24,000 nt of DNA. It comes from Methanofollis aquaemaris. Its GTDB lineage: Archaea; Halobacteriota; Methanomicrobia; Methanomicrobiales; Methanofollaceae. Under the pieces are notes generated by a model. It worked only from the letters and a program-made list of their open reading frames with translations, did not search any database and was not told the DNA's origin. The stretch lies in NCBI RefSeq assembly GCF_017357525.1, contig NZ_CP036172.1, positions 818,561-842,560 on the forward strand, given 5' to 3'. The position numbers and the translations under genes are program-made. This document shows, one piece after another, positions 1 to 22,192 of this stretch (the first letter of the stretch is position 1; each line of letters opens with the position of its first letter).

Positions 1-382
1 CACCGGTGATGCCGTTCTCGGACGAGTTTACTCTGCACAACGGGGAAGAAGAAAGGTGACGGTCCACGGCGGCGCTGTCGGAGAGTGCCAGGGCAGTGTC
101 TTCAGGTTTCGCCGCCGTGCGGTGCATCTCCTCGGTGTTGTCCTGCGATGGCCCCGTGGCCTCCTTACCGGGAGATCTCCGGTGCAGATCCCTTTCCTCA
201 GGGTCGTCGCCTTCAGACGAACCGGGGGTACCGAGTTGCATCTTTTCCTTGCCGGGCGGCCGATCGGACACCTGCCTGCCGGGGAGAAGCGCTGGCGGAT
301 CAGGTGGCCGTTCGGGCTCTTCGTCAATGAAGAGGCGCTCCCGCGGTTGATCTCAGATAAAGATCAGGGGATACGGCCATGA
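1..382 (+). CDS. S26-type peptidase-like protein, C-terminal part only (5' end lies outside the window); paralog of 5810..6457
   Basis: The frame is open from position 2 to TGA at 380-382. The translation (TGDAVLGRVYSAQ...VQIPFLRVVAFRRTGGTELHLFLAGRPIGHLP...NEEALP) aligns colinearly with the C-terminal ~125 aa of the ORF at 5810..6457. The stop overlaps the next start (ATGA at 379-382). Confidence 0.7.
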   Translation, partial: TGDAVLGRVYSAQRGRRKVTVHGGAVGECQGSVFRFRRRAVHLLGVVLRWPRGLLTGRSPVQIPFLRVVAFRRTGGTELHLFLAGRPIGHLPAGEKRWRIRWPFGLFVNEEALPRLISDKDQGIRP

Positions 383-1527
383 ACCGCCGTGCCGGAACCG
401 TGCCGTCGGCCGAGGCGATCCGGGAACTCCACAGCATATACTCTCTCTGTGGCGTGCCGAGGAACGATCTCCTCTCTGTCTCTGACGATCTCCTCCTCTA
501 TCTCTCTTCGATCCTGCGGAATGAAGAGGCTTCTCCACCGGAATGCAGCCCGGAGGCATGGCGACTTCTCCTCCGCCGTCTGTCTCCGCACTGGGTGACT
601 CCGGTCCTGTACGGTTACCTCAGGTCGTGGGACCAGGCATGCCTCCCACCTGCAAAGGTCATGGAGACCGTACGCCGCGACTATCTCATCGGTAAGGTCC
701 GTTCGGTCCAGATGGACCGGCAACTCGGTGAGATCCTCACCACAGCAGAGGACCATGGGATCCGGATACTGATATTGAAGGGACCCGCTCTTGCCAGGTC
801 GGTCTACCCTGACCCCGCAATGCGGGGCGGGGGTGATCTCGACGTGCTGGTCTACCCCGACCAGGTGGAAGAGACCGAGAACCTTCTCGGGGCTCTCGGG
901 TACCGGTGCGATGATAGATTCTTTGCGGTCTCCAAAAATTATTATCATGAAGAGACATTTCTCCCGGACAAAAAAGATCTCGGGAATTTAGCAGTCGAGA
1001 TCCACTGGCGGTGTGCCCCGTCGCTGGGTTTTGTCCCTGCAGTCCCACCGGAGGAACTCTTCTCACGGGCCGTAACCGTCCATACCGATCAGTTCACCTT
1101 TGAGACTCTGGCACCGGTTGACGCTCTCCTCCATACGGCGCTGCATATGATCTTTGGCCATACCTCGAGCATCCGTCTCACCTGGATCCATGACATCGCC
1201 CTGCTTGCTCGCCAACTCAGGGTACCGGAAGAGTGGTCGGTTCTCAGGTCAGCAAGTCGGGTATGGGGAGCACGGAATACCGTCGAGGTCGCCCTCACCA
1301 TGGCACAGGCCTGGACCGGCCTCACCCTCCCGCAAGGATTTGACGACTTCGATCTATGGCCGGCGCCGTCTGAGGAGGAGGTGGCGATCTGGCCCGACCT
1401 CCTGAAAAAAGATGCGTCACTCCGCACCTCTCTCAAACTCAAACTCTCGGTGCTGCCCGACAGAAGGGAGAGGGTCTCTATGTTGGGTTATTTTGCTGGC
1501 CGGAAGTTGAAACATCGATTCAGGTGA
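379..1527 (+). CDS. Nucleotidyltransferase-fold protein (resembles Pfam PF14907 'uncharacterised nucleotidyltransferase'), copy 1
   Basis: 382-aa ORF with an ATG start coupled to the upstream stop. It carries a Pol-beta-type signature (LILKGPALARSVYPDPAMRGGGDLDVLV, i.e. G..x(n)..DxD). By eye it is ~75-80% identical over its full length to the ORF at 6450..7598. Confidence 0.75.
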   Translation: MNRRAGTVPSAEAIRELHSIYSLCGVPRNDLLSVSDDLLLYLSSILRNEEASPPECSPEAWRLLLRRLSPHWVTPVLYGYLRSWDQACLPPAKVMETVRRDYLIGKVRSVQMDRQLGEILTTAEDHGIRILILKGPALARSVYPDPAMRGGGDLDVLVYPDQVEETENLLGALGYRCDDRFFAVSKNYYHEETFLPDKKDLGNLAVEIHWRCAPSLGFVPAVPPEELFSRAVTVHTDQFTFETLAPVDALLHTALHMIFGHTSSIRLTWIHDIALLARQLRVPEEWSVLRSASRVWGARNTVEVALTMAQAWTGLTLPQGFDDFDLWPAPSEEEVAIWPDLLKKDASLRTSLKLKLSVLPDRRERVSMLGYFAGRKLKHRFR

Positions 1528-1636: not shown

Positions 1637-2266
1637 TTGAGAAGACCAACGGCATGTTTGATAGTATGGTGCCTGGCAGGGCTGACGATATGTGGCGTCT
1701 CCGCCATGGCCCCGCCGGCATGGATCGGGCCGGGAACGACCGTAACCTACGAGGCCGCACTGACGCCGTACTATGCGATCGACTCCGACGATCCCCTGGA
1801 GAGGTGGGTGCATTATGAAGGGACCGGAGTGTACGCCTTCTGGATCGACAGGGTCATGGAACGTGACGAGACCGGGTATTCAGGAGACTCGACGGTGATC
1901 AGCGCCTTCGATGGCAGCACCATGGTGGAGGGCGAGTGGTCGTATCAGGCGGGAGATCCGGGCATGGGCCTGTTCTGGGTTGATCTCGACGGCGTCGCCT
2001 TCAGTGCGGAGAACCTTGTCGCGGAAGGGCCGATGGAGGTCGCCGGAGAGATATGGGACGCTCAGGCCTATTATTATGCATCGATCGGAAACACCTTCGA
2101 CGTACGGTTCATCGTCGATAAAGAGAGCGGCCTCCTCCTCAGCAAGACCGAAGGGCTGACCGGTGCGGATGGCCGGATGCAACGGGCGATCTATGTCCTG
2201 CAGTCAATCGAAAACCCGCAGCCAGGGATGGGTAGGCCTGAGAACACCACCTCATGTCAGGAATGA
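1637..2266 (+). CDS. Secreted or membrane-anchored hypothetical protein (N-terminal signal-peptide-like segment)
   Basis: 209-aa ORF with a TTG start preceded by GGGGTGA (SD-like) 6 nt upstream. The N-terminus RRPTACLIVWCLAGLTICGVSA is basic then hydrophobic. I recognise no family. A truncated homolog lies at 7601..7911. Confidence 0.6.
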   Translation: MRRPTACLIVWCLAGLTICGVSAMAPPAWIGPGTTVTYEAALTPYYAIDSDDPLERWVHYEGTGVYAFWIDRVMERDETGYSGDSTVISAFDGSTMVEGEWSYQAGDPGMGLFWVDLDGVAFSAENLVAEGPMEVAGEIWDAQAYYYASIGNTFDVRFIVDKESGLLLSKTEGLTGADGRMQRAIYVLQSIENPQPGMGRPENTTSCQE

Positions 2267-2429: not shown

Positions 2430-4112
2430 TCAAAGGCTTACGGGTTCTCTCGTGAAGTCCAGCACAAGGGCCGGCATCCCGTGAACAGTCCTGAGATCGC
2501 ACCGGCCGCCACAGCGGGCGAACCGTCGCTGGCAGGCCCGGAGATGCGGCCAGTCGCCATGGAGAACACTGGACTGAACAGCAAGGGAAACCATTTCGCC
2601 GGTCCCGGTGGCGGAAACAGCGATCTTTTCCGCTCCCGCGGCAGTGAGACCCTCTATCACCGCGGTGAGCCCGTCACAGAGTCTTTCCGGGCGAGTCCGC
2701 ACCACAAGGGAGTCGGCGTCGTGGACAAAAGAGATGCGGACCTCTTCAAAGAGGGGGAGGTGGGCGATTCTCTGTGCAAGCGCGGACCTGAACGCGTCCT
2801 CGTCCTCAGCCGCGGCGAGAAGCGCCTCATCGAGATGTGAGGAATCGGAGAGGCGCCCGACAAACTCCGCCATCAGCGGGACGACGTCGACCGGCACCGC
2901 GGCGTCGGGAGGGTCGAAGGCGCAAACCGTATGCAGGCAATCGGTGAGCAGGCGAGAGGCCCGGCGCACCAGCGAGGTATCCGCGGCCGGGTCGTCGAGC
3001 CCCCGCCCGAAGGCTCCTTCGATCTTTGCCGCGACCTGCACCGCTTTGAGGACGAACTGAATGTCAATCTTACCACCCTCCCTGAACTCTGTGGCAAAAG
3101 CGTCGAAGTCCGTGAGAAATGCATCGATCATATCGGACTCGATGAGATGCTGGTACCGCTCCGCCTCCTCCACCTCGCCGAGGGCCTCAAGATAATAGGA
3201 GAGGTAATAGATCCTGCCCGAGATGATCGGAAACAACCGGTTTGCCTCGGCAAGCATGTCCTGCGCGTATTCGACCGACTCGCGCAGTCGATCGTTGTCG
3301 AAGTTCCCGATCGCCTTCATGCACTCCAGGTCGTCCTCAAGTTTCCCGAGGGCACGGAGGGTGTCGGGCACCGTGATCTCTCTCCCGTGCCCGTTCCAGC
3401 AGAGAGTGATCCCGCCGGCGGTCAGGATCCGGCGGACCTCTCCAGCCGAGGTGAGCAGGGCATCGGGGTTCCAGCCGTGGAGCCCTGCGACTCCAGGGTT
3501 TGCCGAGAAGAGGAGGTCGCCGAGGAAGAGGTGTTCGCCGACCCTTATGCAGACCGAGTCGGGGCTATGCCCGGGGGTGGCGTAGACTGAGATCAGGTTT
3601 CCCGACGGGAAGGTGAGGCGGTCTGCCGGGACGGCGGCATGCTCCTCATGTTCAAGGACGATCGTCTCGCCGTTTCCGAGAGACACCTCGCGTCCATCCC
3701 CATTATGGAGGCGTACATCAACCCGGAGGGGCTCGATCTCCCACTTGAAGATATCGGCGACGGTCTGCGATTCGTCTCCCGACTCAAGCGCTTCCGCCCC
3801 CTCGGCATGGGCAAAGACGACGACGCCTTTCTCCTCGATCCACGACCGGCGCCTGATCGCCTGAAGACAGTGATCGAGATGACAATGGGTGATGAAGAGA
3901 CAGACCGGACGGGGGCGTGCTGCAGTGAGGGCCTCGACCGTCGAGATAATCGTCTCCATCTGTGTTTCATCCGCGCCGGTGTCGATGATGACGATCTCGC
4001 GCTCTGTTGCGATCAGATAGGCGTTCGAACAGCAGACATCCGGTTTCCTTGTCAGGGGAAGGATGCGTGCCCCATCTGTCCCCGGGATCTCCCGCCAGTC
4101 ATTTTCTGCCAT
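2430..4112 (-). CDS. MBL-fold metallo-hydrolase fused to a long C-terminal domain of unknown function (possibly a degenerate histidine-kinase-like ATPase fold)
   Basis: The N-terminal half has the metallo-beta-lactamase motif ITHCHLDHC (HxHxDH) and later ATPGHSPDS and NGHG. The C-terminal ~280 aa are helical, ending in ...RPERLCDGLTAVIEGLTAAGAEKIAVSATGTGEMVSLAVQ...GGRCDLRTVHGMPALVLDF. The first ATG is at 4112, with GAGGAG ~12 nt upstream. The track start at 4124 is TTG. Confidence 0.7.
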   Translation of the reverse strand: MAENDWREIPGTDGARILPLTRKPDVCCSNAYLIATEREIVIIDTGADETQMETIISTVEALTAARPRPVCLFITHCHLDHCLQAIRRRSWIEEKGVVVFAHAEGAEALESGDESQTVADIFKWEIEPLRVDVRLHNGDGREVSLGNGETIVLEHEEHAAVPADRLTFPSGNLISVYATPGHSPDSVCIRVGEHLFLGDLLFSANPGVAGLHGWNPDALLTSAGEVRRILTAGGITLCWNGHGREITVPDTLRALGKLEDDLECMKAIGNFDNDRLRESVEYAQDMLAEANRLFPIISGRIYYLSYYLEALGEVEEAERYQHLIESDMIDAFLTDFDAFATEFREGGKIDIQFVLKAVQVAAKIEGAFGRGLDDPAADTSLVRRASRLLTDCLHTVCAFDPPDAAVPVDVVPLMAEFVGRLSDSSHLDEALLAAAEDEDAFRSALAQRIAHLPLFEEVRISFVHDADSLVVRTRPERLCDGLTAVIEGLTAAGAEKIAVSATGTGEMVSLAVQSSVLHGDWPHLRACQRRFARCGGRCDLRTVHGMPALVLDFTREPVSL

Positions 4113-4505
4113 CAACGCATGCAACTCCTCTGATCTTTTGTTGCTCCAGATAAACAGCGCGGTGCGGGCATATATGCCTGCCTTTCTTGTTCCGGCGCCG
4201 TCAAAAGATGCGCTATTTTAATCTGATAACTACCAGAAGCGGGGCGGCGAAACAGGGGAAAACCAAAGGGTGGCGATTGAACCGTATCTTCCGGATGCCC
4301 TGTCGCAAGGAGAGAGATCCCTCCACACTCTGAAGCACTGCTCAGAACAATGTTCATCACGTATGCTTGAACCCAAGGTTCATGCCCATTCTACAGAACC
4401 AGACCCCCTAGACTTTTGGGATAGACGCTCTTTCAAAACATCACATAGACAATTCATAATTCTTATAATTCAGAAAAGTGCCCTGAACCAAGAGACAATG
4501 GCTGA

Positions 4506-4530
4506 AAAATATTATAATAAAATATATATC
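4506..4530 (+). promoter_or_regulatory. AT-rich archaeal TATA/BRE-like promoter candidate for the small-ORF/kinase operon
   Basis: aaaatattataataaaatatatatcc sits in a ~480-bp AT-rich intergenic island between divergent genes, about 95-115 nt upstream of the ATG at 4622. A second TATA-like run (tagatatata) lies at 4598-4606. Confidence 0.35.
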
Positions 4531-4621
4531 CTACCACATCTGTGTTTGATACATCCTATTGCAACCATTTCCCCCTCCCTCAGGACACTGAAATGGTAGA
4601 TATATAGGAGAGGTGTCTTTG

Positions 4622-4792
4622 ATGAAAAAACAAACATACGAATCACCACGATTGATCGATCTCAGGGCACATGAGAAGACGATGGGATACGGTTCCCACT
4701 GCACCGGGGGGAGTGCACCCGCTGCTGTAAGATGTGACGACGGCTCATATGCCGTCGCATGTCAAAACGGCGGAGATGTAGGTCAAAATTAA
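4622..4792 (+). CDS. Small ORF (56 aa), candidate ribosomal precursor peptide: MKKQTYESPRLIDLRAHEKTMGYGSHCTGGSAPAAVRCDDGSYAVACQNGGDVGQN
   Basis: Hand-translated; below the 60-aa cutoff of the ORF track. A strong SD (GGAGAGGTG, 4607-4615) lies 6 nt before the ATG. It is on the same strand as, and 150 nt upstream of, the kinase gene. The N-terminus has a KKxxYxxPxL leader-like motif. The C-terminal part is rich in Gly/Ser/Ala/Cys (3 Cys). Confidence 0.6.
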   Translation: MKKQTYESPRLIDLRAHEKTMGYGSHCTGGSAPAAVRCDDGSYAVACQNGGDVGQN

Positions 4793-4941
4793 TTTCAGGA
4801 TATACCCGTATAGATCTGATTGAACAAGGAACGACAAGCAACAGATCCTATCCATTCCTCATGTACCGGAATCCGGGATTGAGACGGGCATACCCCCGGG
4901 AAATAGCAGAAAGATCGTGAAAGGGATCAATAGCGGTGAGC

Positions 4942-5820
4942 ATGTCCTGGAGTGAACATATCACATGGTATCCTTTCACTCTCGCGGACGAGAGTGAGTG
5001 GGCATTCGGGGCAGAGGACGAACTTTCAGACTGGATGGCCCGATTCGCAGCGGTCCTGAAACTCGAAGAAGGCCCTACAACCAACACAAGAAAGATTTTC
5101 TTCAGGCAAGACCCTCCCTACTCGCCGGGCTGGATCACTCAGGAACTCAGACATCTCAGAGTCTGGTCCCATGCCGACTGGCCCGGACATATCATCCAGA
5201 TCCCCCCCGGGCAGGAGGAGAATCCTTCAGTCGATTTCTTCAGGATGAGAGAGGCGATCGGTTTTCTCTGCACCGAACTTCTCTCTTCAGGTGCACTCCC
5301 CCTGCATGCCGCACTCCTCTCCCGCGAGAACCACGGCATCGTGATCGCCGCCCCTGGCGGGACAGGGAAATCCACCTGTGCCGCACGAGCTCCTCCGCCC
5401 TGGCGTGCACTCGGTGACGATATGACACTCGTCGTCAGGGACATGAACGGTGCATATCACGCACATCCTCTTCCCACCTGGAGTGACATTACAGTGCGAG
5501 GGTACACCGAGTGGAGTTGGGATCTGAGGAAGAGCCAACCCCTCAGAGGGGTGTATTTCCTGGAGCAAGCCGATCAAGACGGAATGGTCCCGGTCGGGCA
5601 GGGAGAAGCAACCGCAGGAATCACAGCCTCGGCCATCCAGATTATCCAACTCTACCTGTGGCATATCGATACGCCCATCGCCCGGAGATTCAGAGCGGAT
5701 ATCTTTGCAAATGCATCAAATCTCGTCTGTAAAGTCCCTGCGTTCCGTCTCAGTGCCACGCGTCATGGCCGGTTCTGGGAGGAGATCGAGCGCTCGATGG
5801 CATCTTCCGGTGGGAGGTGA
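4942..5820 (+). CDS. HPr kinase/phosphorylase-like P-loop kinase (HprK-related; resembles ScmC and lasso-cluster kinases)
   Basis: Contains the P-loop IVIAAPGGTGKSTCA followed by ALGDDMTLV (HprK C-terminal domain pattern G.SG.GKS ... DD). The ~130-aa N-terminal domain has no motif I recognise. ATG at 4942; GTG at 4936 is an alternative start. Confidence 0.7.
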   Translation: MSWSEHITWYPFTLADESEWAFGAEDELSDWMARFAAVLKLEEGPTTNTRKIFFRQDPPYSPGWITQELRHLRVWSHADWPGHIIQIPPGQEENPSVDFFRMREAIGFLCTELLSSGALPLHAALLSRENHGIVIAAPGGTGKSTCAARAPPPWRALGDDMTLVVRDMNGAYHAHPLPTWSDITVRGYTEWSWDLRKSQPLRGVYFLEQADQDGMVPVGQGEATAGITASAIQIIQLYLWHIDTPIARRFRADIFANASNLVCKVPAFRLSATRHGRFWEEIERSMASSGGR

Positions 5821-6457
5821 GCGGACGGAGCGACCCTCACACATCTTTCCGAACAGACCCGGCCTCATCACCTATGTCGGGCCGAGCATGTACCCGACGC
5901 TCAGGACCCTTGACATCATCCGCTACCGCCCCTATGATGCAGGCTGCAGGATGCGGAGAGGTGACGTGATCCTCTTCCGGCCTCCAGGACGCAATCGGAT
6001 CGTCATCCACCGCGTCGTTGCAGTCACTCATGAAGGAATACGCACCCAGGGCGACAACAATCTCTCATGCGACCCCTATCTCCTCACCTGCGATGCCGTT
6101 CTCGGACGCGTCCTCTCCGCACATAGGGAAGGGAGAGAAATAGCGGTCCGCGGCGGCGCGGCAGGGTGGTGCCGCGGCAGCGCCCTCCGTCTGCGACGCC
6201 GTGCGGTACACACCCTCGCCGTTGCCCTGCGACACCCTTGCGACGCTCTTGCCGGGAGATGCCCGATACAGATTCCTTTCCTCCGGGTCGCCGCCTTCAA
6301 GCGAACTCGCGGCACCGAACTGCACCTTCTCCTTGCCGGGCGATCGATCGGACGTCTCCCGACCGGGGAGAGGCGCTGGCTGATCAGGCGACCGTTCGGG
6401 CTCATCGTGAATGAAGAGGCGCTCCCGAGACCAAAACCAGAGGGGAACCATGAGTAA
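5810..6457 (+). CDS. Soluble S26-family (signal-peptidase-I-like, Ser/His archaeal/ER type) peptidase with an Arg-rich C-terminal extension
   Basis: Carries S26 boxes in order: GPSMYPTL (Ser nucleophile), RGDVILFRPP, IVIHRVV (His rather than Lys, as in the Sec11/archaeal type) and GDNNLSCD. There is no hydrophobic N-terminal anchor in any candidate start. The GTG at 5810 overlaps the kinase stop by 11 nt; ATG 5765 is the alternative. The ~110-aa C-terminal extension is conserved with 1..382. Confidence 0.7.
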   Translation: MGGERTERPSHIFPNRPGLITYVGPSMYPTLRTLDIIRYRPYDAGCRMRRGDVILFRPPGRNRIVIHRVVAVTHEGIRTQGDNNLSCDPYLLTCDAVLGRVLSAHREGREIAVRGGAAGWCRGSALRLRRRAVHTLAVALRHPCDALAGRCPIQIPFLRVAAFKRTRGTELHLLLAGRSIGRLPTGERRWLIRRPFGLIVNEEALPRPKPEGNHE

Positions 6458-7700
6458 CCATGCCGGTGTCCCGGACTCGACAACGGCTATCAGAGAAACT
6501 CACAACACATACTGGCTCTGTGGGAAGCCGAGAAACGATCTCCTCTCGGCGCCGGACGCACTCCTCCTCTACCTCTCTTCGGTCCTGCGGAATGAAGAGA
6601 TCCCTCCACCGGAATGCAGCCTCGAAGCATGGCGGCTTCTTCTCCGAAGCCTGTACCCGCACTGGGTAACACCGATCCTGTATGGGTATCTCAGGTCATG
6701 GGACCGGGCACATCTCCCACCTGCGGAGGTCATGGAGATCATACGCCGCGAATATCTCATCGGCAAGGTCCGTTCGGTCCAGATGGACCAGCAACTTGGT
6801 GAGATCCTGACCGCAGCAGAGGACCACGGGATCAGGATGTTGATACTGAAAGGCCCCGCCCTCGCCAGATCGATCTACTCTGACCCCGCGATGCGGGGCG
6901 GGTGTGATCTCGATCTGCTGGTCTGCCCCGATCAGGTGGAAGAGACAGAGGATCTTCTCGTGGCTCTCGGGTACCGGTGCAATAATAGAACATTTGCAGT
7001 CTCAAAGAATTTTTATCATGAAGAGATGTTTCTCCCGGACAAAAATGATTCTGGATGTTTAGCGGTCGAGATCCACTGGCGGTGCGCTCCCTCGGCGGGG
7101 TTCGTCACTGCTGTTCCACCTGAGGAACTCTTCTCACGGGCTGTAACCATCAGCACCGATAAACTCACCTTTGAAACCATGGCGCCGGTTGACGCTCTCC
7201 TCCATACAGCACTGCACATGGTCTTTGGCCACACCAGGAACATCCGCCTCACCTGGATACATGACATCGCCCTCCTCGCAGGCCAGCTCAGGATCCCGGA
7301 GGACTGGGCGGCGGTGAGGGACGCGAGTGCTACGTGGGGTGCACGGAATGCCGTCGAAGTCGGTCTCACGATGGCGGAGGTCTGGACCGGCCTCACTCTC
7401 CCGCAAGGATTCGATGACTTCGATCTCTGGCCTTCGCCATCCGAGAGGGAGGCGACGATCTGGCCCGATCTCCTGAGAAGAGACGAATCGATTCCTTCCT
7501 CTCTGAAACTCAGTCTCTCGGCGCTGCCTGACAGAAGAGAGAAGATCCATATGCTGAGGTATCTTGCCGGCCGTACGTTGAAGAATCTCTTCTGGTGATC
7601 CGGGCACGGGCCTGTTCTGGATTAAACTCGACGGTGTTGCCTTCAGTGCGGAGACCTCTGTTGCGGAAGGGTCGATGGAGCACGCCGGGGAGCGGGATCG
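6085..7700 (+). repeat. Segmental duplication, copy B, with an internal ~430-bp deletion relative to copy A
   Basis: Same gene order as copy A. Sequence equivalent to 1528-1963 of copy A is absent. The junction sits at a shared GATCC (tgatccag at 1525-1532, agatccgg at 1964-1971, tgatccgg at 7596-7603). Confidence 0.75.
6450..7598 (+). CDS. Nucleotidyltransferase-fold protein (PF14907-like), copy 2
   Basis: With ATG 6450 the product is 382 aa, the same length as copy 1, and this start overlaps the peptidase stop by 8 nt. The motif LILKGPALARSIYSDPAMRGGCDLDLLV is present. The track start at 6411 adds a non-conserved extension. Confidence 0.75.
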   Translation: MSNHAGVPDSTTAIRETHNTYWLCGKPRNDLLSAPDALLLYLSSVLRNEEIPPPECSLEAWRLLLRSLYPHWVTPILYGYLRSWDRAHLPPAEVMEIIRREYLIGKVRSVQMDQQLGEILTAAEDHGIRMLILKGPALARSIYSDPAMRGGCDLDLLVCPDQVEETEDLLVALGYRCNNRTFAVSKNFYHEEMFLPDKNDSGCLAVEIHWRCAPSAGFVTAVPPEELFSRAVTISTDKLTFETMAPVDALLHTALHMVFGHTRNIRLTWIHDIALLAGQLRIPEDWAAVRDASATWGARNAVEVGLTMAEVWTGLTLPQGFDDFDLWPSPSEREATIWPDLLRRDESIPSSLKLSLSALPDRREKIHMLRYLAGRTLKNLFW

Positions 7701-7911
7701 TTCCCAACCTGCTTTCACTTTTACCCTGGTTTTCACTGACATACACTCAGGAAGTGTCACCATACGGGCGGACATTAGGGGCGCGATTGCCGATCCCGGC
7801 CTTTTCACCCCAATCTTCTCCGTCATGTTCACCAGGATCCCGATCGCGCACACACCCACCCCGAGACCCCGACGGATCAGATCTGCTCTGTGCCCCCCCA
7901 TTTTGGTGTAA
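7601..7911 (+). pseudogene. 5'-truncated remnant of a paralog of the 1637..2266 secreted-protein gene
   Basis: 7601-7700 aligns at nucleotide level with 1964-2063 (ccgggca(t/c)gggcctgttctgg...gccttcagtgcggaga...gcggaaggg.cgatggag). The encoded PGTGLFWIKLDGVAFSAETSVAEGSMEHAGE matches DPGMGLFWVDLDGVAFSAENLVAEGPMEVAGE. The N-terminal ~108 codons, including the signal peptide and start, are missing. Confidence 0.65.
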
Positions 7912-8335
7912 CATAGTACTCTGAGAGAGAGAGATCTCTCTTCTCTCTCTAGAATATGCATTCTGAGCCTCTTCATCCGTTCCCTTTGTGTTCACTTTTC
8001 CAGTGTAACTCCGGTGAAAACAGGGTGAAAAGGTGTCATTGTTCGGGGGGTCGGGGTCGAACCAGACATGCACGCCTCCACTCCACTGGGGATACGCCGC
8101 CAGGTCGGGGTGACCGGCGGCACCGCTGAAGAGAAGGAGGGAGAGAGAGTATAAAAAGGAAAGGGGATTTGTCCGAAAGTGGGAACGTCGGTGTCTCGCG
8201 AGATGGTGGCGGTCAGGCGAGATTGTCGTAATAATCCGACTCTGTTGAATCGGGCATGAACCCTGGGTTCCCCATACGTGATGGACCGGCAGAGGACGGG
8301 AACCCCCTCTGAACGATTCCCCGCTCGCCTTCCCA

Positions 8336-8498
8336 CCCTATCGCAATCCCGGGGGTTCCGGGGGCAGCGCCCCCGGCGCGTATGATGAGGGAAGGCACGG
8401 CGATCAGAAGGGCCGCCCCGCCAGAAGAACGAGAAACTTTATCCTGCTCTCTCGCGCCGGGGGGAGACCCCCCGGACCCCCCACGACGAAGATAGGGG
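8336..8498. repeat. Long imperfect inverted repeat (arms 8336-8380 and 8453-8498, 72-nt spacer) built from a G/C-palindromic element
   Basis: The left arm ccctatcgcaatcccgggggttccgggggcagcgcccccggcgcg pairs with the right arm cgcgccggggggagaccccccggaccccccacgacgaagatagggg. The right arm has an internal perfect hairpin ccgggggg-aga-ccccccgg (8457-8475). The left arm has ccggggg-cagcg-cccccgg. Confidence 0.7.
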
Positions 8499-8923
8499 TC
8501 GGGCGGCAGAGCACCCGGTGAAAGGATAGAAGAAGGCGAGGAATGGATGTTCACGCCACGAGGAGAGGAGAGTTTTACACCATCATCTTTCTTTATCTCT
8601 GGCAGAGGGGGAAGCCAGGAGAGTTTTGGGATGACCTCATGAAATGAATTTCATGCGGTATGCCTGAGGAGTGCTTTCGCCTCATGAGCGATTCTACAGA
8701 GCTGATATTTTATTTCAGCCTCACGGATCCTTCACCCCTGCTGTTCAAGGTTGGCGGCGCAAGAGGTGAGAGTGCCGTTCGCAAGTCCACGGGCGATGGA
8801 GCGGTCTGCATACTCGTTCTTAACGATATGAAAAGAGCGACCTGATCGCGTTGGCGCGGATTTCATACACATGCCTTCAGTCAGGGCAGGAAAAGCGTTC
8901 GGGATTTGGACCCAAAATCAGAG

Positions 8924-10438: not shown

Positions 10439-11827
10439 TTATGGTCCGTTCAGCCGTTCCCTGCACCGGGAGACGAATCCCCGGTACAGGGCGGCGCTCG
10501 CCACCGGGTGGAGGTGGGTGTAGCTCGCGAGCACGTTGCCGCGGACCGCCCCGTCCATGCCGCCCGAGATCCCGGTACCCCTGGAGAGACGGTAGGCATA
10601 GGTCGTGCCCTCGTCGAGAATAACCTCGGAGTAGTGGAACTCGTGCCCCCGAAACGCCCAGTCGCCGAAAGGACAGGCAGGACCGGACCGCCCCTCGACA
10701 TAGCCCAGAGACCGGCGGGCCGGAATGGCCGCCTCGCCGGGCAGGACGCCGCACATCTCGTAGACCTCCTCGTGCTCCCGTCCCTGCCAGCCTGAGCGCA
10801 GGACCAGGCGGTCGGTGAGGTAGATGAGCCCGCCACACTCGGCATAGATGGGAACGTCGTTCTCAGCGGCGGCACGGAGTCCTTCCCGCATCCTGACATT
10901 TTTCTCCAGTCCTCCGGCGTAGAGTTCGGGATACCCGCCGCCGAGGATATAGCCGTCCGCCTCGGGGAAGGGGTCGTGGATGGGACTGAAGGTCACGACC
11001 TCCGCACCCAGCGCACCGAGGAGGTCGAAGAGATCGTTGTAGTAGAAGTTGAAGGCCTCGTCGTAGGCGACCGCGACCCTGAGGTCGGGTGCCGCCTGCA
11101 CCGGCGCAAAGATCTCCTCGGCCGGACCTTTCGGGGTGCACTCGACCATCAGCGCCTTCAGGGCGTCGAGGTCGATGCACGATGCCACGACGTCTTGAAT
11201 AGCCTCGACCCGCGCCAGAAAGTCGTCGCCCTCCTGCCCCTCGCGGTACGGGACCAACCCGAGGTGGCGCATCGCCAGCTGCATCCCCTCGTCTCTGGGG
11301 ACCGCACCGATCACCGGGAGCCCGCAGTAGTGTTCGATGGCTCTCGTGGTCTTTTCACGGTGACCTGCGGTCCTGATGTTGTTGAGGATGACGCCGGCGA
11401 CCTTCACCTCGGGGTCGAACCCGGCATAGCCGTTGACGATGGCGGCGGCGCTCCTGGTGATGCTCCGGGCGTCCACGACCAGGACCACCGGGAGGTCGAG
11501 GGCCTTGGCGACCGAGGCGGTGCTGCCGGCATCGCCCAGGGCCTCGGCACCCTCGAAAAGACCCCGTACCCCTTCGACCAGGGCGAGGTCGGCGCCCTTC
11601 GCGCCGTGCTCGAAGACTCCCTGCATCTGGGCCGGGGACATCACATAGGAGTCCAGGTTCCGGCAGGGTCGTCCGGTGACCGCCGTCAGATACGAGGGGT
11701 CGATGTAGTCCATCGCCACCTTGTAGGTCTGCACCGTGGCCTCCCGCGAGAGGAGGGCGGCGAGGGCGAGGGTGATGCTCGTCTTCCCGCTGCCCGACCG
11801 GTCGCCTGAGATGAGGAGTCCTTTCAT
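10439..11827 (-). CDS. cfbB: Ni-sirohydrochlorin a,c-diamide synthase (CbiA/CobB family amidotransferase)
   Basis: Starts [22 protein letters not shown] (P-loop) and has a C-terminal glutamine amidotransferase block ([17 protein letters not shown]). It sits in the cfb operon. ATG 11827 is preceded by GGGGAGAG. The 105-codon upstream extension in the track overlaps cfbD and was rejected. Confidence 0.85.
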
Positions 11828-11831
11828 CCGC

Positions 11832-12905
11832 TCACTCTCCCCGTGCCATGCTCCGGAGCACCGCCCCGAACTCGCTCTCCACGATCTCCCTGACCCCGAG
11901 GGTCTTGGGATGGAGGTCGACCTCGACGACGACCATGGCATGGCCGATCCCCTTGAGGGGCGCGACCTGTCTGGGGCCGTTGGTGACCGAGATCGTCTCG
12001 ATCCCGTCGGTGTACTCCGGCGGGACAGCGTGGGGCACGCCGACCAGGAAGGCGAAGTCGGGTTTGATCTCCTGGATCCGTTCGCCGACGGCCTCGCCGT
12101 TCTCCCCGTACTCGTCGAGGGCGCCGAGGAGTTCGGGTTCAAGCCCCCGCTCCTTCATCCCGGTGAGGATGCGGGCGCCGTCGGCCCGCACCTTCGGGAG
12201 GCCCCGGTCTTCGAGGTTGGCAAGATAGGTGATCTCGGCCTCAGGGCAGGCCTCGCGGAGGGCGCAGAGTTCATCGGCAAACATGTATGCCGTTTCTTTC
12301 TTCGCGTTGAGCACCGCGACTCCCCGCTTCCCGCTCCTCGCAAGGTCGAGGATACGGCGAGCGGCGAGGTGCTTGAGGTCGCCACGGGACGGTTCGATGT
12401 ACGGCTGCGATGCCGCACCCCTGAGCCGTTCCACCTGGTTTGCCGCAGCGAGGAGGCGGCGTTGACGTTCGAGTTCCTCCCCGTCGATCCACCCGGCCCG
12501 TGCGGCGGGTTCGAGGACCGCAAGGACGCCCTCGATGTTCTCCCTGAAGCCGGCATGGATATCGACTGCGATTGTCGGGGTCTCGACACCCGACGCCTCG
12601 ATGGCCGCCTCGATATCCTCGCCGATGATCATCGAGACGCAGGTGCCGATCACCGCCATCCGCGCCGGGGAGAATTCTGTCTCTGCGTACCTGAGCACCC
12701 GTTCCAGAACGCCCTGGCCACCGAAGATGAACTCGTTCTCACCGAGCGAGGTGGTCAGGACTCGCATTCCGTCTTCTTCGAGGAGACGGGCATGCTTGAA
12801 CGAGCAGCCCGAGGGGCCGTGGAGGATGGCCACCTCCACCCCGAGGTCGCGGGCGGTATACAGGGAGGCGACGATCGAACTTGGCCGTGGTTGTACGTAT
12901 TCCAT
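11832..12905 (-). CDS. cfbD: Ni-sirohydrochlorin a,c-diamide reductive cyclase subunit (nitrogenase NifD/NflD-like)
   Basis: A nitrogenase component-1-like protein (ILHGPSGCSFKHARL, VIGTCVSMIIGEDI) located between cfbE and cfbB. ATG 12905 is preceded by GGAGAT and lies 1 nt after the cfbE stop. Confidence 0.8.
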   Translation of the reverse strand: MEYVQPRPSSIVASLYTARDLGVEVAILHGPSGCSFKHARLLEEDGMRVLTTSLGENEFIFGGQGVLERVLRYAETEFSPARMAVIGTCVSMIIGEDIEAAIEASGVETPTIAVDIHAGFRENIEGVLAVLEPAARAGWIDGEELERQRRLLAAANQVERLRGAASQPYIEPSRGDLKHLAARRILDLARSGKRGVAVLNAKKETAYMFADELCALREACPEAEITYLANLEDRGLPKVRADGARILTGMKERGLEPELLGALDEYGENGEAVGERIQEIKPDFAFLVGVPHAVPPEYTDGIETISVTNGPRQVAPLKGIGHAMVVVEVDLHPKTLGVREIVESEFGAVLRSMARGE

Positions 12906-12906
12906 T

Positions 12907-14088
12907 CTATCTCCATGTCTTGACGGCAAGGACAATAGTCCCACCGTTGCTCATCTGCTCTGCTCTGCTGATCCCGTCCTCCAGGTCGGCAGCCGTGACG
13001 GCGCCGGCCGGGAGGTCGTCTGCGTCGTAGTCGCCGACGATGACCGTTTTGTCTGGCCCGATCTCCTGCACCGCCGCCACCACTTCGTCGGCCGGGAAGC
13101 CCTCGCAGATGGTCTGGCCCTCGGTCCCGATCACCAGGACAAAGGGTGCGCCGCCTCCGAGGGCCCGTGCGTACGCGGCGGCATCGGCGGCGATCTCGCG
13201 GCATGCGCCGCTGTTCGCACAGTCAACGGTGAGCCGACCGTGCTCGCGGGAGACCGCCATCCGCCCGGTAAGGGGAGCGAAGTCCGCCAACCCCGTCGGG
13301 TCACGGCCCAGCAGACAGGCCGCGACGGCCGCCATCTGCAGCGGCGTCCGGTATCCCCGTAGGGCAAGGAGTGGGTTCTCAAACGAGCCCTGCACCTCCC
13401 CGTACCGGTAGATACAGTGCGTCCCCTCGACGACGGCGACCTCATCGGCGCCGACGGCGCCCGGCACCGTCACCCCGGCAGGGACGAGCACCCGTGCCGC
13501 GGCAGCGAGAGAACGGACCTTCTCGGTGATGGCCCGTCTCTTCCCGGCGGCGCAGGGGTAGTCGTCGCCCGAGGTGAGGACGGCAAGGTCGCCGGCCCCC
13601 GAGACGCCGAGAGACTCTTCGGCGATCAACCACCCGCCGCACTTGACCGCCTCTCTCGCGGCCGGGAGAACCGAAGCCGGCGTGATGGAGCGTCTCCACA
13701 GACGCCGACGCTCGGGAAAAACGAAGGTGCCCATCGAGGTGTGAAGCACACCACGGCCGCCAAGCACATGCGCCAGGGCCGTCGCCGTGGTGGTCTTCCC
13801 CCTCGCACCGGTGACCTCGACCATCAATCCGGGTCGGGATGAGAGAAGGAGGAGGCGGACCGCCTCATGATGGGTGATGACCTCGGGCCCCCGCCTGAGC
13901 AGGGGATGATCGGGATCGAGGTGGACCGGGGCGACGATCAGATCGTAGGATCGTCTCGCCGCCTCGGCAACAGAGATCCCGACCTCGCCGCGGTAGACGT
14001 CCACCGCATCGACGGTGTGCCCGGCCCCCTCCAGTGCCTCCGCAATCTCAGTGCCGCCATGGATAGTATCGAGGACGAGGACTCTCAT
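12907..14088 (-). CDS. cfbE: Coenzyme F430 synthetase (Mur-ligase family)
   Basis: Has the Mur-ligase P-loop VEVTGARGKTTTATALAHVL. Its size and its position directly after cfbA (zero-nt gap) fit the cfb operon described for methanogens. Confidence 0.8.
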   Translation of the reverse strand: MRVLVLDTIHGGTEIAEALEGAGHTVDAVDVYRGEVGISVAEAARRSYDLIVAPVHLDPDHPLLRRGPEVITHHEAVRLLLLSSRPGLMVEVTGARGKTTTATALAHVLGGRGVLHTSMGTFVFPERRRLWRRSITPASVLPAAREAVKCGGWLIAEESLGVSGAGDLAVLTSGDDYPCAAGKRRAITEKVRSLAAAARVLVPAGVTVPGAVGADEVAVVEGTHCIYRYGEVQGSFENPLLALRGYRTPLQMAAVAACLLGRDPTGLADFAPLTGRMAVSREHGRLTVDCANSGACREIAADAAAYARALGGGAPFVLVIGTEGQTICEGFPADEVVAAVQEIGPDKTVIVGDYDADDLPAGAVTAADLEDGISRAEQMSNGGTIVLAVKTWR

Positions 14089-14493
14089 TCAGACGTTTGC
14101 GTTGATCGCATCCTCGGCGTTCTTGACCATCAGGTCGGCCAGGAGGGGGTCGGGCCCGATGGGACCGGCATAGACCAGCGGGATCTCGCCGTTGTTGTGG
14201 GCGAAGGTGCCCTTATTCTCGCCCTCGGGGAGGCCGAGAAGGGCCGGGATGTCCTTGACGATGTGGATGCCCTTCGCAAGGAAGAGTGGGACGACGACAA
14301 GCATCTCGATCTCGTCCTCCTTGAAGAGATTCAGGGCGTCTTCCACGGTCGGGGTGTTCATGGACATGAAGCCCGGCCTGACCAGGTATTCAGGGTGCTG
14401 GTCTGCGATGTGGGCGGCGGTCTTTTCGATGAGTTCCTGGTTATAGGACAGCTTGCTGCCGTGTCCGACGAGTAGTAATCCCTTTTGTGACAT
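14089..14493 (-). CDS. cfbA: Sirohydrochlorin nickelochelatase (small CbiX-type chelatase)
   Basis: A 134-aa CbiX(S)-like product (LLLVGHGSK..., VVVPLFLAKGIHIVKDIP). It is the first gene of the cfbA-E-D-B string. Confidence 0.85.
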   Translation of the reverse strand: MSQKGLLLVGHGSKLSYNQELIEKTAAHIADQHPEYLVRPGFMSMNTPTVEDALNLFKEDEIEMLVVVPLFLAKGIHIVKDIPALLGLPEGENKGTFAHNNGEIPLVYAGPIGPDPLLADLMVKNAEDAINANV

Positions 14494-21353: not shown

Positions 21354-21746
21354 TCAGGTCACAGCATCAAGAATGACCTGCGACGATCCGTCTTTGTAGG
21401 TCGCCATGACCATCACCCGATGCCCTCCCCGGGGATCGGCGACCGGAGTGGCATTGAATGCGGATGCTCCGACCTCATGATCGAGCCGGTTGGTCTGCTC
21501 GATCCCGTCGATCGTCCAGTTCAGGTGATCGACATCCCGCTCCCCCATGCCGCCGACATAGGTAACGGTGATCGTGCCGTCTTCAAACTGCGTTGCCGTC
21601 GCCCCGACGATCCCGTTTCCCTGAAGATCTCCGGTGGTGCCAAAACCGAAGGAGGCAACGATGGCGGCAAGGATCACCGTGACGGCGACCATGAGGATAG
21701 CGGCGATGGTCGAGGAGACCGCGTCGTCATGTGCGGACTGAACCAT
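21354..21746 (-). CDS. Archaeal type IV pilin-like protein (DUF1628 / class III signal peptide)
   Basis: The N-terminus DDAVSSTIAAILMVAVTVILAAIVASF is the archaeal pilin N-terminal domain pattern. GGTGGAG lies before the ATG. Confidence 0.8.
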   Translation of the reverse strand: MVQSAHDDAVSSTIAAILMVAVTVILAAIVASFGFGTTGDLQGNGIVGATATQFEDGTITVTYVGGMGERDVDHLNWTIDGIEQTNRLDHEVGASAFNATPVADPRGGHRVMVMATYKDGSSQVILDAVT

Positions 21747-21784
21747 AGGTCTCCACCCCCATAAAGAAAAAAAAGGGAAGGGGT

Positions 21785-22192
21785 TCAGACGAAGGTGTCC
21801 AGGACAACCTGCGTTGTACCGTCGTTAAACAGTGCTGCAGCAACCACATGTTCCTTTGCGGAGGTGCCAAGACCAGTGAATGTGGTTGAATTCCCAACTT
21901 TAGGTGTTTGCCAGTTCTCGGTGTGCTTTGTGTTTGAAGAATCAGTGACAGTTATGTTGAGCCACAGCATGTCGCCTGCGTCCGGACCGCCCTGATAGGT
22001 GACCATAATATCCTGACCCTGCTGGGTCGCAGTGGCGGCGACACTCTTAGTGCCAGACATGTTGCCGGCCATACCGAAAACAAACGCGGCGATGACGGCC
22101 GCGAGGATCACCGTGATGGCGACCATGAGGATGACGCCGATAACCGGCGACACAGCCTCGTCATTCTTCTCAAACTTCTCAAACAGTTTCAT
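21785..22192 (-). CDS. Archaeal type IV pilin-like protein (DUF1628 / class III signal peptide)
   Basis: From ATG 22192 the product starts MKLFEKFEKNDEAVSPVIGVILMVAITVILAAVIAAFVFG, a canonical DUF1628 N-terminus. The upstream 25 codons in the track were rejected. Confidence 0.8.
   Translation of the reverse strand: MKLFEKFEKNDEAVSPVIGVILMVAITVILAAVIAAFVFGMAGNMSGTKSVAATATQQGQDIMVTYQGGPDAGDMLWLNITVTDSSNTKHTENWQTPKVGNSTTFTGLGTSAKEHVVAAALFNDGTTQVVLDTFV

What the first reader, a model, noticed from the sequence alone, without database searches (positions are those of the whole stretch)
4506..7598. Candidate undescribed RiPP-like cassette in a methanogen: small peptide + HprK-like kinase + soluble S26 peptidase + PF14907-like nucleotidyltransferase
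Seen in sequence: four co-directional genes lie behind an AT-rich promoter island. They are an SD-preceded 56-aa ORF, a P-loop HprK-like kinase, a Ser/His S26-type peptidase without a membrane anchor, and a Pol-beta-fold nucleotidyltransferase. The last three have overlapping stop/start codons, which suggests one translationally coupled unit. Established knowledge (from memory): HprK-like kinases and nucleotidyltransferase-fold proteins are tailoring enzymes in Firmicute lasso-peptide clusters (paeninodin-type kinase; the pseudomycoidin kinase plus nucleotidyltransferase). An HprK-like protein (ScmC) is also part of the uncharacterised SynChlorMet radical-SAM cassette. Inference: this window has no lasso cyclase, B1/B2 protein, stand-alone PqqD, radical SAM enzyme or exporter. 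An S26 signal-peptidase-like enzyme sits where a leader peptidase would be expected. I am not aware of a described RiPP class with that combination, in archaea or elsewhere.
Basis: partly seen in the sequence, partly recalled or inferred. Interest (0 to 1): 0.88.

Follow-up and report, generated by a model that had tools for sequence, protein, structure and literature searches.

The report
Duplicated arm of SynChlorMet peptide cassette
The four genes are real and do look like a peptide-modification set, but they are a second copy of one half of the already catalogued, never characterised SynChlorMet radical-SAM cassette, and the "missing" enzymes lie just left of the window.

Summary
An SD-preceded 56-aa ORF (4622-4792), a P-loop protein (4942-5820), a soluble Ser/His S26-type peptidase (5810-6457) and a PF14907 nucleotidyltransferase (6450-7598) run co-directionally with overlapping junctions.

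- **Kinase identity:** it is ScmC itself (TIGR04249, 216 bits against a cutoff of 125). The organism is Methanofollis aquaemaris.
- **Missing enzymes:** sequential GenBank ids and contigs from what appears to be the same strain's sequencing run place ABC exporter–ScmF–ScmE–ScmD directly upstream of a paralogous ScmC–S26–NTase set. The 3' part of that set is window 2-1527.
- **Orthologue:** a related Methanofollis-like contig has one copy of the same peptide and enzymes, lying directly beside ScmD/E/F.
- **Conservation:** among 43 ScmC loci from bacteria and archaea, the S26-like peptidase (29), ScmD (30), the radical SAM enzymes (27-28), an ABC exporter (24) and the NTase (19) recur. So do small ORFs (25 loci) with a [YW]-[EQ]-x-P-x-L leader, a Gly-rich junction and C-x-x-G repeats.

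The finding is therefore a tandem duplicate of the precursor-plus-tailoring arm of a catalogued, experimentally uncharacterised RiPP cassette, not a new class without radical SAM enzymes.

Useful by-products are a candidate precursor family, a candidate soluble S26 leader peptidase, and evidence that ScmC diverges together with its peptide.

The parts
4506..4530 (+). AT-rich block, a putative archaeal TATA/promoter element about 95 nt upstream of the peptide ATG
   Evidence: Read directly from the sequence. GC drops locally. The block is partly conserved upstream of the orthologous peptide in L044. Promoter function is inferred.
4606..4612 (+). Shine-Dalgarno-like GGAGAGG, 9 nt before the peptide start
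4622..4792 (+). Precursor peptide, copy 2 (56 aa): leader MKKQTYESPRLIDLRAHEKTMGYG, core SHCTGGSAPAAVRCDDGSYAVACQNGGDVGQN. The split after G24 is a predicted cleavage site.
   Evidence: The orthologue in L044 is also 56 aa with all three Cys kept. pN/pS is 0.21 in the leader and 0.71 in the core. The same leader motif occurs in 37 small ORFs across 25 of the 43 ScmC loci (plus the window and L046). The gene is not annotated in GenBank or RefSeq.
4942..5820 (+). ScmC, copy 2: a P-loop protein with an HprK/PEPCK-like fold and the presumed peptide kinase
   Evidence: TIGR04249 scores 216.4 bits against a cutoff of 125. The sequence is 100% identical to QSZ66690.1, annotated 'SynChlorMet cassette protein ScmC'. 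The AF2 model has pLDDT 93. Foldseek finds PEPCK at 1.5e-9 and HprK/P at 1e-4. A profile search of PDB sequences returns only HprK/P. dN/dS is 0.27 against the orthologue.
5810..6457 (+). Soluble S26-type Ser/His peptidase, copy 2: the candidate leader peptidase. It has about 100 extra C-terminal residues and no N-terminal membrane anchor.
   Evidence: TIGR02228 scores 53.8 bits against 51.85. Ser/His/Asp motifs are conserved and there is no TM segment. Bona fide archaeal signal peptidases aligned alongside it carry the anchor and lack the extension. The AF2 model (pLDDT 72.5) best matches SEC11A, SipA, SpsB and LexA, at weak E-values (best 5e-3, none at or below 1e-3). A homologue lies in 29 of 43 ScmC loci, mostly next to ScmC. 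dN/dS is 0.25.
6450..7598 (+). PF14907 (NTP_transf_5) nucleotidyltransferase-fold protein, copy 2
   Evidence: PF14907 E = 4e-48. G148, R162, D166-x-D168, H222, H269 and D285 are conserved in 18-19 of 19 family members. It is present in 19 of 43 ScmC loci. dN/dS is 0.32.
7591..7716 (+). Remnant of the hyp209 gene (42 aa), marking the right end of the duplicated unit
   Evidence: tblastn 64% aa identity and blastn 86% over 100 nt to window 1952-2050
2..382 (+). 3' part of S26-like peptidase copy 1 (QSZ66686.1 / WP_265582045.1)
   Evidence: Frame-2 translation and 79% nt identity to copy 2. The full 207-aa protein was rebuilt from L046 plus L001 and found in the protein collection.
379..1527 (+). 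PF14907 nucleotidyltransferase, copy 1 (QSZ66687.1)
   Evidence: 76% aa identity to copy 2

Best explanation
The four genes are the second, tandemly duplicated copy of the precursor-plus-tailoring arm of a SynChlorMet (Scm) RiPP cassette in Methanofollis aquaemaris.

**Genome order.** ABC exporter, ScmF, ScmE and ScmD (all on the opposite strand) | pep1, ScmC1, S26-1, NT-1, hyp209 | MBL-fold gene (opposite strand) | pep2, ScmC2, S26-2, NT-2, hyp209 remnant. The window starts inside S26-1.

**Shown here.**
- Family identity of every enzyme.
- Conserved synteny in 43 loci.
- A conserved precursor family: short leader M-x(2-5)-[YW]-[EQ]-x-P-x-L-[IV]-x-[LF], a Gly-rich junction that is often G-x-G, and a core of roughly 10-residue repeats C-x-x-G-[GST].
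- Intact catalytic motifs and purifying selection on all copy-2 genes.

**Inferred mechanism.**
1. The PqqD-family protein ScmD binds the YExPxL leader.
2. The two radical SAM/SPASM enzymes ScmE and ScmF cross-link the core at its Cys residues, most likely as thioethers. They would act in trans on both precursors.
3. ScmC, which has diverged far more between the copies than its neighbours and so tracks its own peptide, uses ATP to phosphorylate the peptide, probably on Ser/Thr near the C-x-x-G motifs.
4. The PF14907 enzyme elaborates that site, by analogy with PsmN, which is needed for hexosylation of a kinase-installed phosphate in pseudomycoidin.
5. The anchor-less S26 peptidase removes the leader after the small-x-small junction (G22-Y-G24↓S25 in this peptide).
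6. The ABC transporter, which has no C39 peptidase domain, exports the product.
For: **Identity.** ScmC equivalog hit. Existing annotation and organism.

**Rest of the cassette in the same genome.** L045 carries ScmD, ScmE, ScmF and an ABC exporter, all three Scm proteins above equivalog cutoffs. L046 carries the pep1 tail plus ScmC1 and joins L001 by 19 nt inside S26-1. GenBank and RefSeq accessions are consecutive from ABC (QSZ66682 / WP_...039) through ScmF, ScmE, ScmD, ScmC1, S26-1, NT-1, hyp209, MBL, ScmC2, S26-2, NT-2 and PRC to IlvE (QSZ66694 / WP_...053). Their order matches the known order of all window genes.

**Orthologue.** L044 reads ABC-ScmF-ScmE-ScmD | 56-aa peptide-ScmC-S26-NT.

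**Co-occurrence in 43 ScmC loci.** ScmD 30, S26 29, radical SAM 27-28, peptide 25, ABC 24, NT 19. In 16 loci the peptide ORF ends within about 300 nt upstream of ScmC.

**Core motif.** Gly at +3 of Cys in 72% of cases. Cys-Cys spacing is mostly 9-11 residues.

**Selection and history.** dN/dS is 0.25-0.32 for copy 2 against the orthologue. dS between the two copies is about 1.9 for ScmC but about 0.55 for S26 and NT.

**Repeated architecture.** Several ScmC genes share one radical SAM set in L006, L009, L017 and L037. A second S26 and a second peptide beside the extra ScmC were seen in L009 and L017.

**Kinase/NTase precedent.** PMC6993621.

**No C39 domain.** The ABC protein aligns to bacteriocin_ABC only from profile position 198 onwards.
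Against: - No experiment exists for any Scm protein. The library holds no paper naming the cassette.
- Linkage of ScmDEF to copy 1 rests on accession order and on contigs that do not all overlap. There is a gap between L045 and L046.
- ScmC's kinase activity is inferred from fold and P-loop only. It scores far below the HprK-related kinase A/B cutoffs.
- Scm peptides have no conserved C-terminal Ser, unlike lasso kinase substrates.
- The junction Gly motif is variable.
- Some ScmC loci with full flanks lack radical SAM genes (L031, L036, L003, L005, L032). Dependence of copy 2 on ScmE/F is therefore not proven.
Confidence: 0.78

Rival explanations
1. One reading: peptide, ScmC, S26 peptidase and NTase form a self-sufficient pathway independent of radical SAM enzymes. 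The steps would be phosphorylation, nucleotidylation or glycosylation, then leader removal. Copy 2 would work on its own.
For: Copy 2 has no ScmD, radical SAM gene or exporter within the window. ScmC-S26(-NT)-ScmD loci with full 10-kb flanks and no radical SAM gene exist. In two of them (L036, L031) the peptides lack Cys altogether.
Against: pep2 keeps three Cys in the same C-x-x-G context as the radical-SAM-linked relatives. Its orthologue sits directly beside ScmD/E/F. The same genome encodes ScmD/E/F and an exporter about 7-10 kb upstream. Copy 2 has no RRE/PqqD protein of its own.
Confidence: 0.12
2. Copy 2 is a decaying, non-functional duplicate left over from a segmental duplication.
For: The neighbouring hyp209 gene of the duplicated unit is reduced to a 42-aa remnant. 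The S26-2 gene has lost the ATG used by copy 1 and by the orthologue, and must start at a GTG or an upstream ATG.
Against: All four ORFs are intact, and catalytic residues are intact. dN/dS against the orthologue is 0.25-0.32, and the peptide leader has pN/pS 0.21. Copy 2, not copy 1, is the orthologue of the single-copy cassette in L044.
Confidence: 0.06
3. The peptidase is the housekeeping signal peptidase I, as annotated in RefSeq, and its neighbours are unrelated genes.
For: It passes the TIGR02228 cutoff by 2 bits. RefSeq names it signal peptidase I.
Against: It has no membrane anchor and carries an extra C-terminal region of about 100 aa, whereas true archaeal homologues have the anchor. 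It is adjacent to ScmC in bacteria and archaea alike. Two copies lie in one cassette.
Confidence: 0.02

Closest known systems
SynChlorMet cassette (NCBIfam/TIGRFAM models TIGR04248 ScmD, TIGR04249 ScmC, TIGR04250 ScmE, TIGR04251 ScmF)
   Same: ScmC in the window and ScmD/E/F in the same genome all score above the equivalog cutoffs. The gene order matches that of 27-30 other loci.
   Different: The window holds only the precursor, ScmC, peptidase and NTase arm, as a second tandem copy without its own ScmD/E/F. None of the four Scm models that matched here covers the precursor, the S26-like peptidase or the PF14907 protein. No NCBIfam model matches the peptide. I recall that the cassette's precursor was listed as unidentified; that is from memory and was not checked.
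Kinase plus nucleotidyltransferase tailoring pair of Firmicute lasso peptides (PadeK/PsmK and PsmN)
   Same: Both pair an HprK-like P-loop kinase and an uncharacterised NTase-family protein with a PqqD-type RRE and a YxxP leader. PsmK phosphorylates the precursor, and PsmN is required for hexose on the phosphate (PMC6993621; co-occurrence in PMC7533575).
   Different: No lasso cyclase or B protease is present. ScmC is far below the cutoffs of HprK-related kinases A and B (33 and 15 bits against 200). Scm peptides have no conserved C-terminal Ser. Whether PsmN belongs to PF14907 was not tested here.
Radical SAM/SPASM thioether RiPPs (sactipeptides and ranthipeptides, e.g. PapB, AlbA)
   Same: These systems also combine SPASM maturases, a PqqD/RRE, Cys-rich repeat cores and an ABC exporter. 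ScmE and ScmF give sub-threshold hits to PapB, AlbA, StsB and SkfB.
   Different: There are two distinct SPASM enzymes, plus ScmC, S26 and NTase partners. The core motif C-x-x-G-[GST] with about 10-residue spacing is not one of the characterised motifs I know of (from memory). The chemistry is unknown.
Soluble or specialised S26 peptidases (NiSOD maturation protease SodX, SipW)
   Same: They have an S26 fold and remove a short N-terminal propeptide from one dedicated substrate. Sub-threshold hits were found to TIGR02754 (27.5 bits) and SipW (31.3 bits).
   Different: Both hits are below the family cutoffs. The Scm-associated protein has a Ser/His (ER/archaeal-type) dyad and a unique C-terminal region made of a long helix and a small beta-sheet.

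Membership tests
SynChlorMet cassette | ScmC (TIGR04249) at or above the equivalog cutoff | tested here: met
   216.4 bits against 125. Copy 1 is also annotated as ScmC.
SynChlorMet cassette | Two radical SAM/SPASM proteins, ScmE (TIGR04250) and ScmF (TIGR04251) | tested here: met
   They are not in the window: no CxxxCxxC ORF was found. They are in the same genome on L045: 614.7 and 551.9 bits against cutoffs of 400. Accessions WP_265582041 and 040 come just before ScmC1.
SynChlorMet cassette | PqqD-family ScmD (TIGR04248) | tested here: met
   111.7 bits against 100 on L045. QSZ66684 comes directly before ScmC1, QSZ66685. It is not in the window.
SynChlorMet cassette | Physical linkage of these genes in one locus | tested here: inconclusive
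   Consecutive accession numbers and orthologous synteny in L044 support linkage. The chromosome sequence left of the window could not be read, and there is a gap between contigs L045 and L046.
Lasso peptide cluster | Asn-synthetase-like cyclase (C) and transglutaminase-like leader protease (B/B2) | tested here: not met
   None was found among the window ORFs that were scanned. None appears among the recurrent gene families of the 43 loci.
Type I signal peptidase (S26) | Catalytic Ser plus Lys/His, with boxes B-E | tested here: met
   GxSMxP, GD, HR and GDxxxxxD are conserved at 90-97%. TIGR02228 scores 53.8 against 51.85. The fold matches SEC11A and SpsB, at weak E-values.
Type I signal peptidase (S26) | N-terminal membrane anchor placing the active site at the membrane surface | tested here: not met
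   No hydrophobic segment. Anchored archaeal homologues in the same alignment show the difference. Pfam PF10502 scores 18.2, below 22.9.
HprK/P and HprK-related kinases A/B | Family HMM at cutoff, with a P-loop kinase domain | tested here: not met
   TIGR04352 scores 33.2 and TIGR04355 scores 14.9 against cutoffs of 200. Only the fold and P-loop are similar.
PF14907 NTP_transf_5 | Pfam gathering score and the DxD catalytic motif | tested here: met
   164.6 bits against 31.2. D166-x-D168 is invariant in 19 of 19 members.

The most novel reading that the evidence does not exclude
The YExPxL-leader peptide plus ScmC, the soluble S26 peptidase and (often) the PF14907 enzyme may form an autonomous, widespread maturation module, to which radical SAM enzymes are optional add-ons. 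In this reading a signal-peptidase-type enzyme serves as a cytoplasmic RiPP leader peptidase. An HprK/PEPCK-fold kinase primes a nucleotidyl or glycosyl modification. Copy 2 in M. aquaemaris would make a product of its own. Supporting observations are the radical-SAM-less loci with Cys-free cores (L031, L036) and the joint divergence of ScmC and its peptide.
Probability: 0.2. Interest if true: 0.75.

Novelty: new member of a known kind. Interest (0 to 1): 0.45.

Why it matters
The SynChlorMet cassette is a catalogued unknown. Its proteins are named in automatic annotation, but I found no paper on it, and no NCBIfam or Pfam model matches its precursor.

This locus, together with the 43-locus comparison, supplies what an experiment would need:
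- a candidate precursor family with a leader motif and a predicted cleavage site;
- two further conserved partners, a soluble S26 peptidase and a PF14907 enzyme;
- evidence that ScmC is the peptide-specific component;
- a cultured methanogen carrying two precursor/ScmC modules beside one radical SAM set.

If the S26 protein is the leader peptidase, that would be a new use of the signal-peptidase fold in RiPP biosynthesis, to my knowledge. The product would be one of the few archaeal RiPPs open to study.

Tried and rejected
- **Genome context.** Exact-protein look-ups of P0003 and P0074 found nothing. The NCBI chromosome is not in the contig index, so only short Logan contigs were available. 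The genome-contig scan did not return M. aquaemaris. I therefore inferred gene order from consecutive accession numbers.
- **Literature.** 'SynChlorMet' and 'ScmC' plus 'radical SAM' found no paper, and no listed hit carried a TIGR04249/50/51 identifier. The only ScmE/ScmF hits were unrelated single-cell software. A search on ranthipeptide, archaea, kinase and PqqD found nothing relevant.
- **Family models.** This Pfam copy has no hit for ScmC; PF27840 appears only in the precomputed tables. No NCBIfam or Pfam model matches the peptide.
- **RNA features.** The peptide-ScmC intergenic region (4790-4945) folds no better than shuffles (z = 0.06), so no attenuator is claimed. Rfam finds only tRNA-Glu.
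- **S26 homologues and model.** The word-index search gave only 9 hits. The AF2 model is therefore moderate (pLDDT 72.5), and the C-terminal region could not be assigned to a fold.
- **Lasso peptide reading.** Rejected, because there is no cyclase or B protein.
- **Double-glycine/C39 export-coupled cleavage.** Considered and rejected, because the ABC exporter lacks the peptidase domain.
- **MBL-fold gene (2430-4124) and hyp209.** Neither recurs in other Scm loci, so neither is counted as part of the system.

Full report
**1. What is in the window**

The window comes from the methanogen Methanofollis aquaemaris. The P-loop protein is 100% identical to QSZ66690.1 of that species. The neighbouring genes include coenzyme F430 biosynthesis genes CfbB, CfbD, CfbE and CfbA, and methanogenesis marker 9.

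At the reported coordinates there are four co-directional ORFs:
- **Peptide:** a 56-aa ORF (ATG 4622 to TAA 4792), preceded by GGAGAGG.
- **P-loop protein:** 292-294 aa (4936/4942-5820).
- **S26-like protein:** it ends at 6457. Every possible start (GTG 5810, ATG 5765, ATG 5711) overlaps the end of the previous gene.
- **NTase:** a 382-aa protein starting at ATG 6450, which overlaps the S26 stop by 8 nt.

An AT-rich stretch lies upstream (GC 0.46-0.50 against about 0.6). It contains a block that is partly conserved upstream of the orthologous peptide gene of a related organism.

**2. Identity of the enzymes**

- **P-loop protein.** It matches TIGR04249, 'SynChlorMet cassette protein ScmC', at 216.4 bits against a cutoff of 125. 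The HprK-related kinase A and B models match only over the P-loop (33 and 15 bits against 200). A confident AF2 model (pLDDT 93) resembles PEP carboxykinases (E about 1e-9) and HPr kinase/phosphorylases (E about 1e-4). A profile search of PDB sequences returns only HprK/P, aligned over the His, P-loop and Asp region.
- **Peptidase.** It passes the archaeal signal peptidase I model by 2 bits, with weaker hits to SipW and the NiSOD maturation protease. Across 30 family members the Ser (GxSMxP), His-Arg and GD...D boxes are conserved at 90-97%, and no segment is hydrophobic enough to span a membrane. True archaeal signal peptidases aligned with it carry an N-terminal anchor and lack its C-terminal extension of about 100 residues. 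A moderate AF2 model best matches SEC11A, SipA, SpsB and LexA, at weak E-values (best 5e-3).
- **Nucleotidyltransferase.** It is PF14907 (E = 4e-48), with an invariant DxD.

**3. The 'missing' genes are just outside the window**

Window 2-1527 is a second copy of the 3' part of the S26 gene plus the NTase gene, 79% identical in DNA to 6085-7601. The genome also encodes a second ScmC, 52% identical to the first.

Contigs from one public sequencing run, whose proteins are identical to the M. aquaemaris GenBank entries, carry the following:
- ScmD, ScmE, ScmF and an ABC exporter on L045. The three Scm proteins score 111.7 (cutoff 100), 614.7 (cutoff 400) and 551.9 (cutoff 400) bits.
- The tail of a second peptide plus ScmC copy 1 on L046. 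This contig joins the contig that opens the window through a 19-nt overlap inside S26 copy 1.

GenBank and RefSeq protein accessions run consecutively in this order: ABC (QSZ66682 / WP_265582039), ScmF (66683 / 040), ScmE (041), ScmD (66684 / 042), ScmC-1 (66685 / 044), S26-1 (66686 / 045), NT-1 (66687 / 046), hyp209 (66688 / 047), MBL (66689 / 048), ScmC-2 (66690 / 049), S26-2 (66691 / 050), NT-2 (66692 / 051), PRC (66693 / 052), IlvE (66694 / 053). For every gene inside the window this order equals the physical order. The radical SAM genes, the PqqD protein and the exporter therefore lie directly upstream of copy 1, roughly 7-10 kb from the finding. This linkage is an inference from numbering and synteny, because I could not read that DNA as one piece.

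**4. Orthologue and history**

A contig from another sample (L044; ScmC 75% identical) has a single cassette: ABC, ScmF, ScmE and ScmD on one strand. On the other strand it has a 56-aa peptide (MKTRAYESPRLIDLRAHEKTMGYGHHCVTGSAPAAVNCGVGNYAVACHAGGDVGEN), ScmC, S26 and NTase.

The finding's copy is the orthologue of this cassette. dS is about 0.5-0.6 and dN/dS is 0.25-0.32 for all three enzymes. The peptide leader has pN/pS 0.21 and the core 0.71.

The two M. aquaemaris copies are a mosaic. S26 and NTase differ by dS of about 0.55, whereas ScmC differs by dS of about 1.9, and the peptide cores are unrelated apart from the Cys pattern. A 42-aa remnant of the hyp209 gene after NT-2 marks the end of the duplicated unit.

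**5. The cassette across genomes**

Forty-two genome loci with ScmC homologues, plus L044, were compared. Genes found within the fetched flanks:

| Gene | Loci (of 43) |
|---|---|
| ScmD | 30 |
| S26-like peptidase | 29 |
| ScmE / ScmF | 27-28 |
| ABC exporter | 24 |
| PF14907 NTase | 19 |

The peptidase is usually the gene next to ScmC. This holds in Deltaproteobacteria, Nitrospirae, Planctomycetes, Chlorobi, Aminicenantes, Methanotrichaceae and Methanogenium. The S26 peptidase and the NTase are therefore regular members of an extended Scm cassette, not a special feature of this methanogen. The ScmC family itself has about 970 cluster representatives at E ≤ 1e-30.

**6. The precursor family**

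A leader profile found 37 small ORFs across 25 of the 43 loci (plus the window and L046), almost all beside Scm genes. In 16 loci the ORF ends within about 300 nt upstream of ScmC.

They share three features:
- A leader of the form M-x(2-5)-[YW]-[EQ]-x-P-x-L-[IV]-x-[LF].
- A Gly one to six residues before the first Cys, often as G-x-G.
- Cores built from C-x-x-G-[GST] units. Gly occupies +3 in 72% of cases, and Cys-Cys spacing is mostly 9-11 residues.

The window peptide fits: CTGGS, CDDGS and CQNGG, spaced 11 and 9 residues apart. No NCBIfam or Pfam model matches these peptides. The window's peptide gene is not annotated in GenBank or RefSeq.

**7. How it probably works**

Shown:
- The gene families, the synteny, the conserved catalytic residues and purifying selection.
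- The joint divergence of ScmC and its peptide.
- The absence of a C39 peptidase domain in the exporter.

Inferred:
- ScmD binds the YExPxL leader, as PqqD-type RREs do.
- ScmE and ScmF cross-link the Cys-containing repeats.
- ScmC phosphorylates its cognate peptide.
- The PF14907 enzyme builds on that phosphate. The precedent is pseudomycoidin, where the HprK-type kinase PsmK phosphorylates the precursor and the NTase-family protein PsmN is required for hexose attachment to the phosphate (PMC6993621; co-occurrence of such genes with PqqD in lasso clusters, PMC7533575).
- The anchor-less S26 enzyme cuts after the small-x-small junction (G22-Y-G24↓S25), which fits the -3/-1 rule of this peptidase family (established knowledge).
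- The ABC transporter exports the product.

Several ScmC genes share one radical SAM set in L006, L009, L017 and L037, and a second S26 and peptide beside the extra ScmC were seen in L009 and L017. This supports the idea that copy 2 uses ScmD/E/F in trans.

**8. What remains open**

Five loci with full or nearly full flanks carry ScmC together with ScmD, S26 or NT but no radical SAM gene. In two of them (L036, L031) the peptides have no Cys at all.

For this peptide, however, it is unlikely, given its conserved Cys pattern, its orthologue's context and the nearby ScmD/E/F.

**9. Verdict**

- **Observation:** confirmed.
- **Interpretation:** partly supported. It is a RiPP cassette, but not a new class.
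- **Novelty:** a new member of a catalogued but experimentally untouched kind. The duplication adds interest, and the comparison defines the precursor family and two further conserved partners.

Noticed in passing
window 7591-7716: A 42-aa remnant of the hyp209 gene (1637-2266) lies directly after NT-2. It shows that the duplicated unit once included that gene.
   Followed up: yes
window 4942-7598 versus window 2-1527 and L046: The two cassette copies have mosaic ages. ScmC differs by dS of about 1.9 (52% aa identity), while S26 and NTase differ by dS of about 0.55 (70-76%). Either gene conversion has homogenised the 3' genes, or the pep+ScmC unit was replaced.
   Followed up: partly
window 7717-8920, especially 8240-8262, 8336-8380/8453-8497 and 8390-8420: About 1.2 kb has no convincing ORF and no Rfam match. 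It contains a 45-nt imperfect GC-rich inverted repeat. It also holds two short sequences (23 and 31 nt) that recur in the ScmD-pep1 intergenic region (L045). It may be a small repeat element.
   Followed up: partly
window 4622-4792: The conserved 56-aa precursor gene is absent from the GenBank and RefSeq annotation of this genome. It has no accession slot, and the exact sequence is not in the protein collection.
   Followed up: yes
L036 9235-12743; L031 9431-11797: These ScmC cassettes lack radical SAM genes within 10 kb. Their leader-bearing peptides have no Cys: one ends ...GFSGQDEPFPPE, the other carries HSGSSG repeats.
   Followed up: partly
L003 7863-8492; L005 7601-8314: The ScmD (PqqD) ORF runs on, without a stop, into a leader-plus-Cys-rich-core sequence. 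This may be an RRE-precursor fusion or an unrecognised start codon.
   Followed up: no
window 2430-4124 (- strand): A 560-aa MBL-fold hydrolase with a long C-terminal extension lies between the two cassette copies. No homologue was found in the other Scm loci.
   Followed up: partly
window 10442-14493 (- strand), 15002-16135: This is a coenzyme F430 biosynthesis cluster (CfbB, CfbD, CfbE, CfbA), followed by a protein with a methanogenesis marker 9 domain.
   Followed up: yes
window 21357-22267 (- strand): Two adjacent small proteins carry archaellin/type IV pilin-like N-termini. Only 21357-21746 was scanned and hit the model; the other is judged by sequence. A 615-aa polytopic membrane protein (18306-20150) nearby has no family match.
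   Followed up: no
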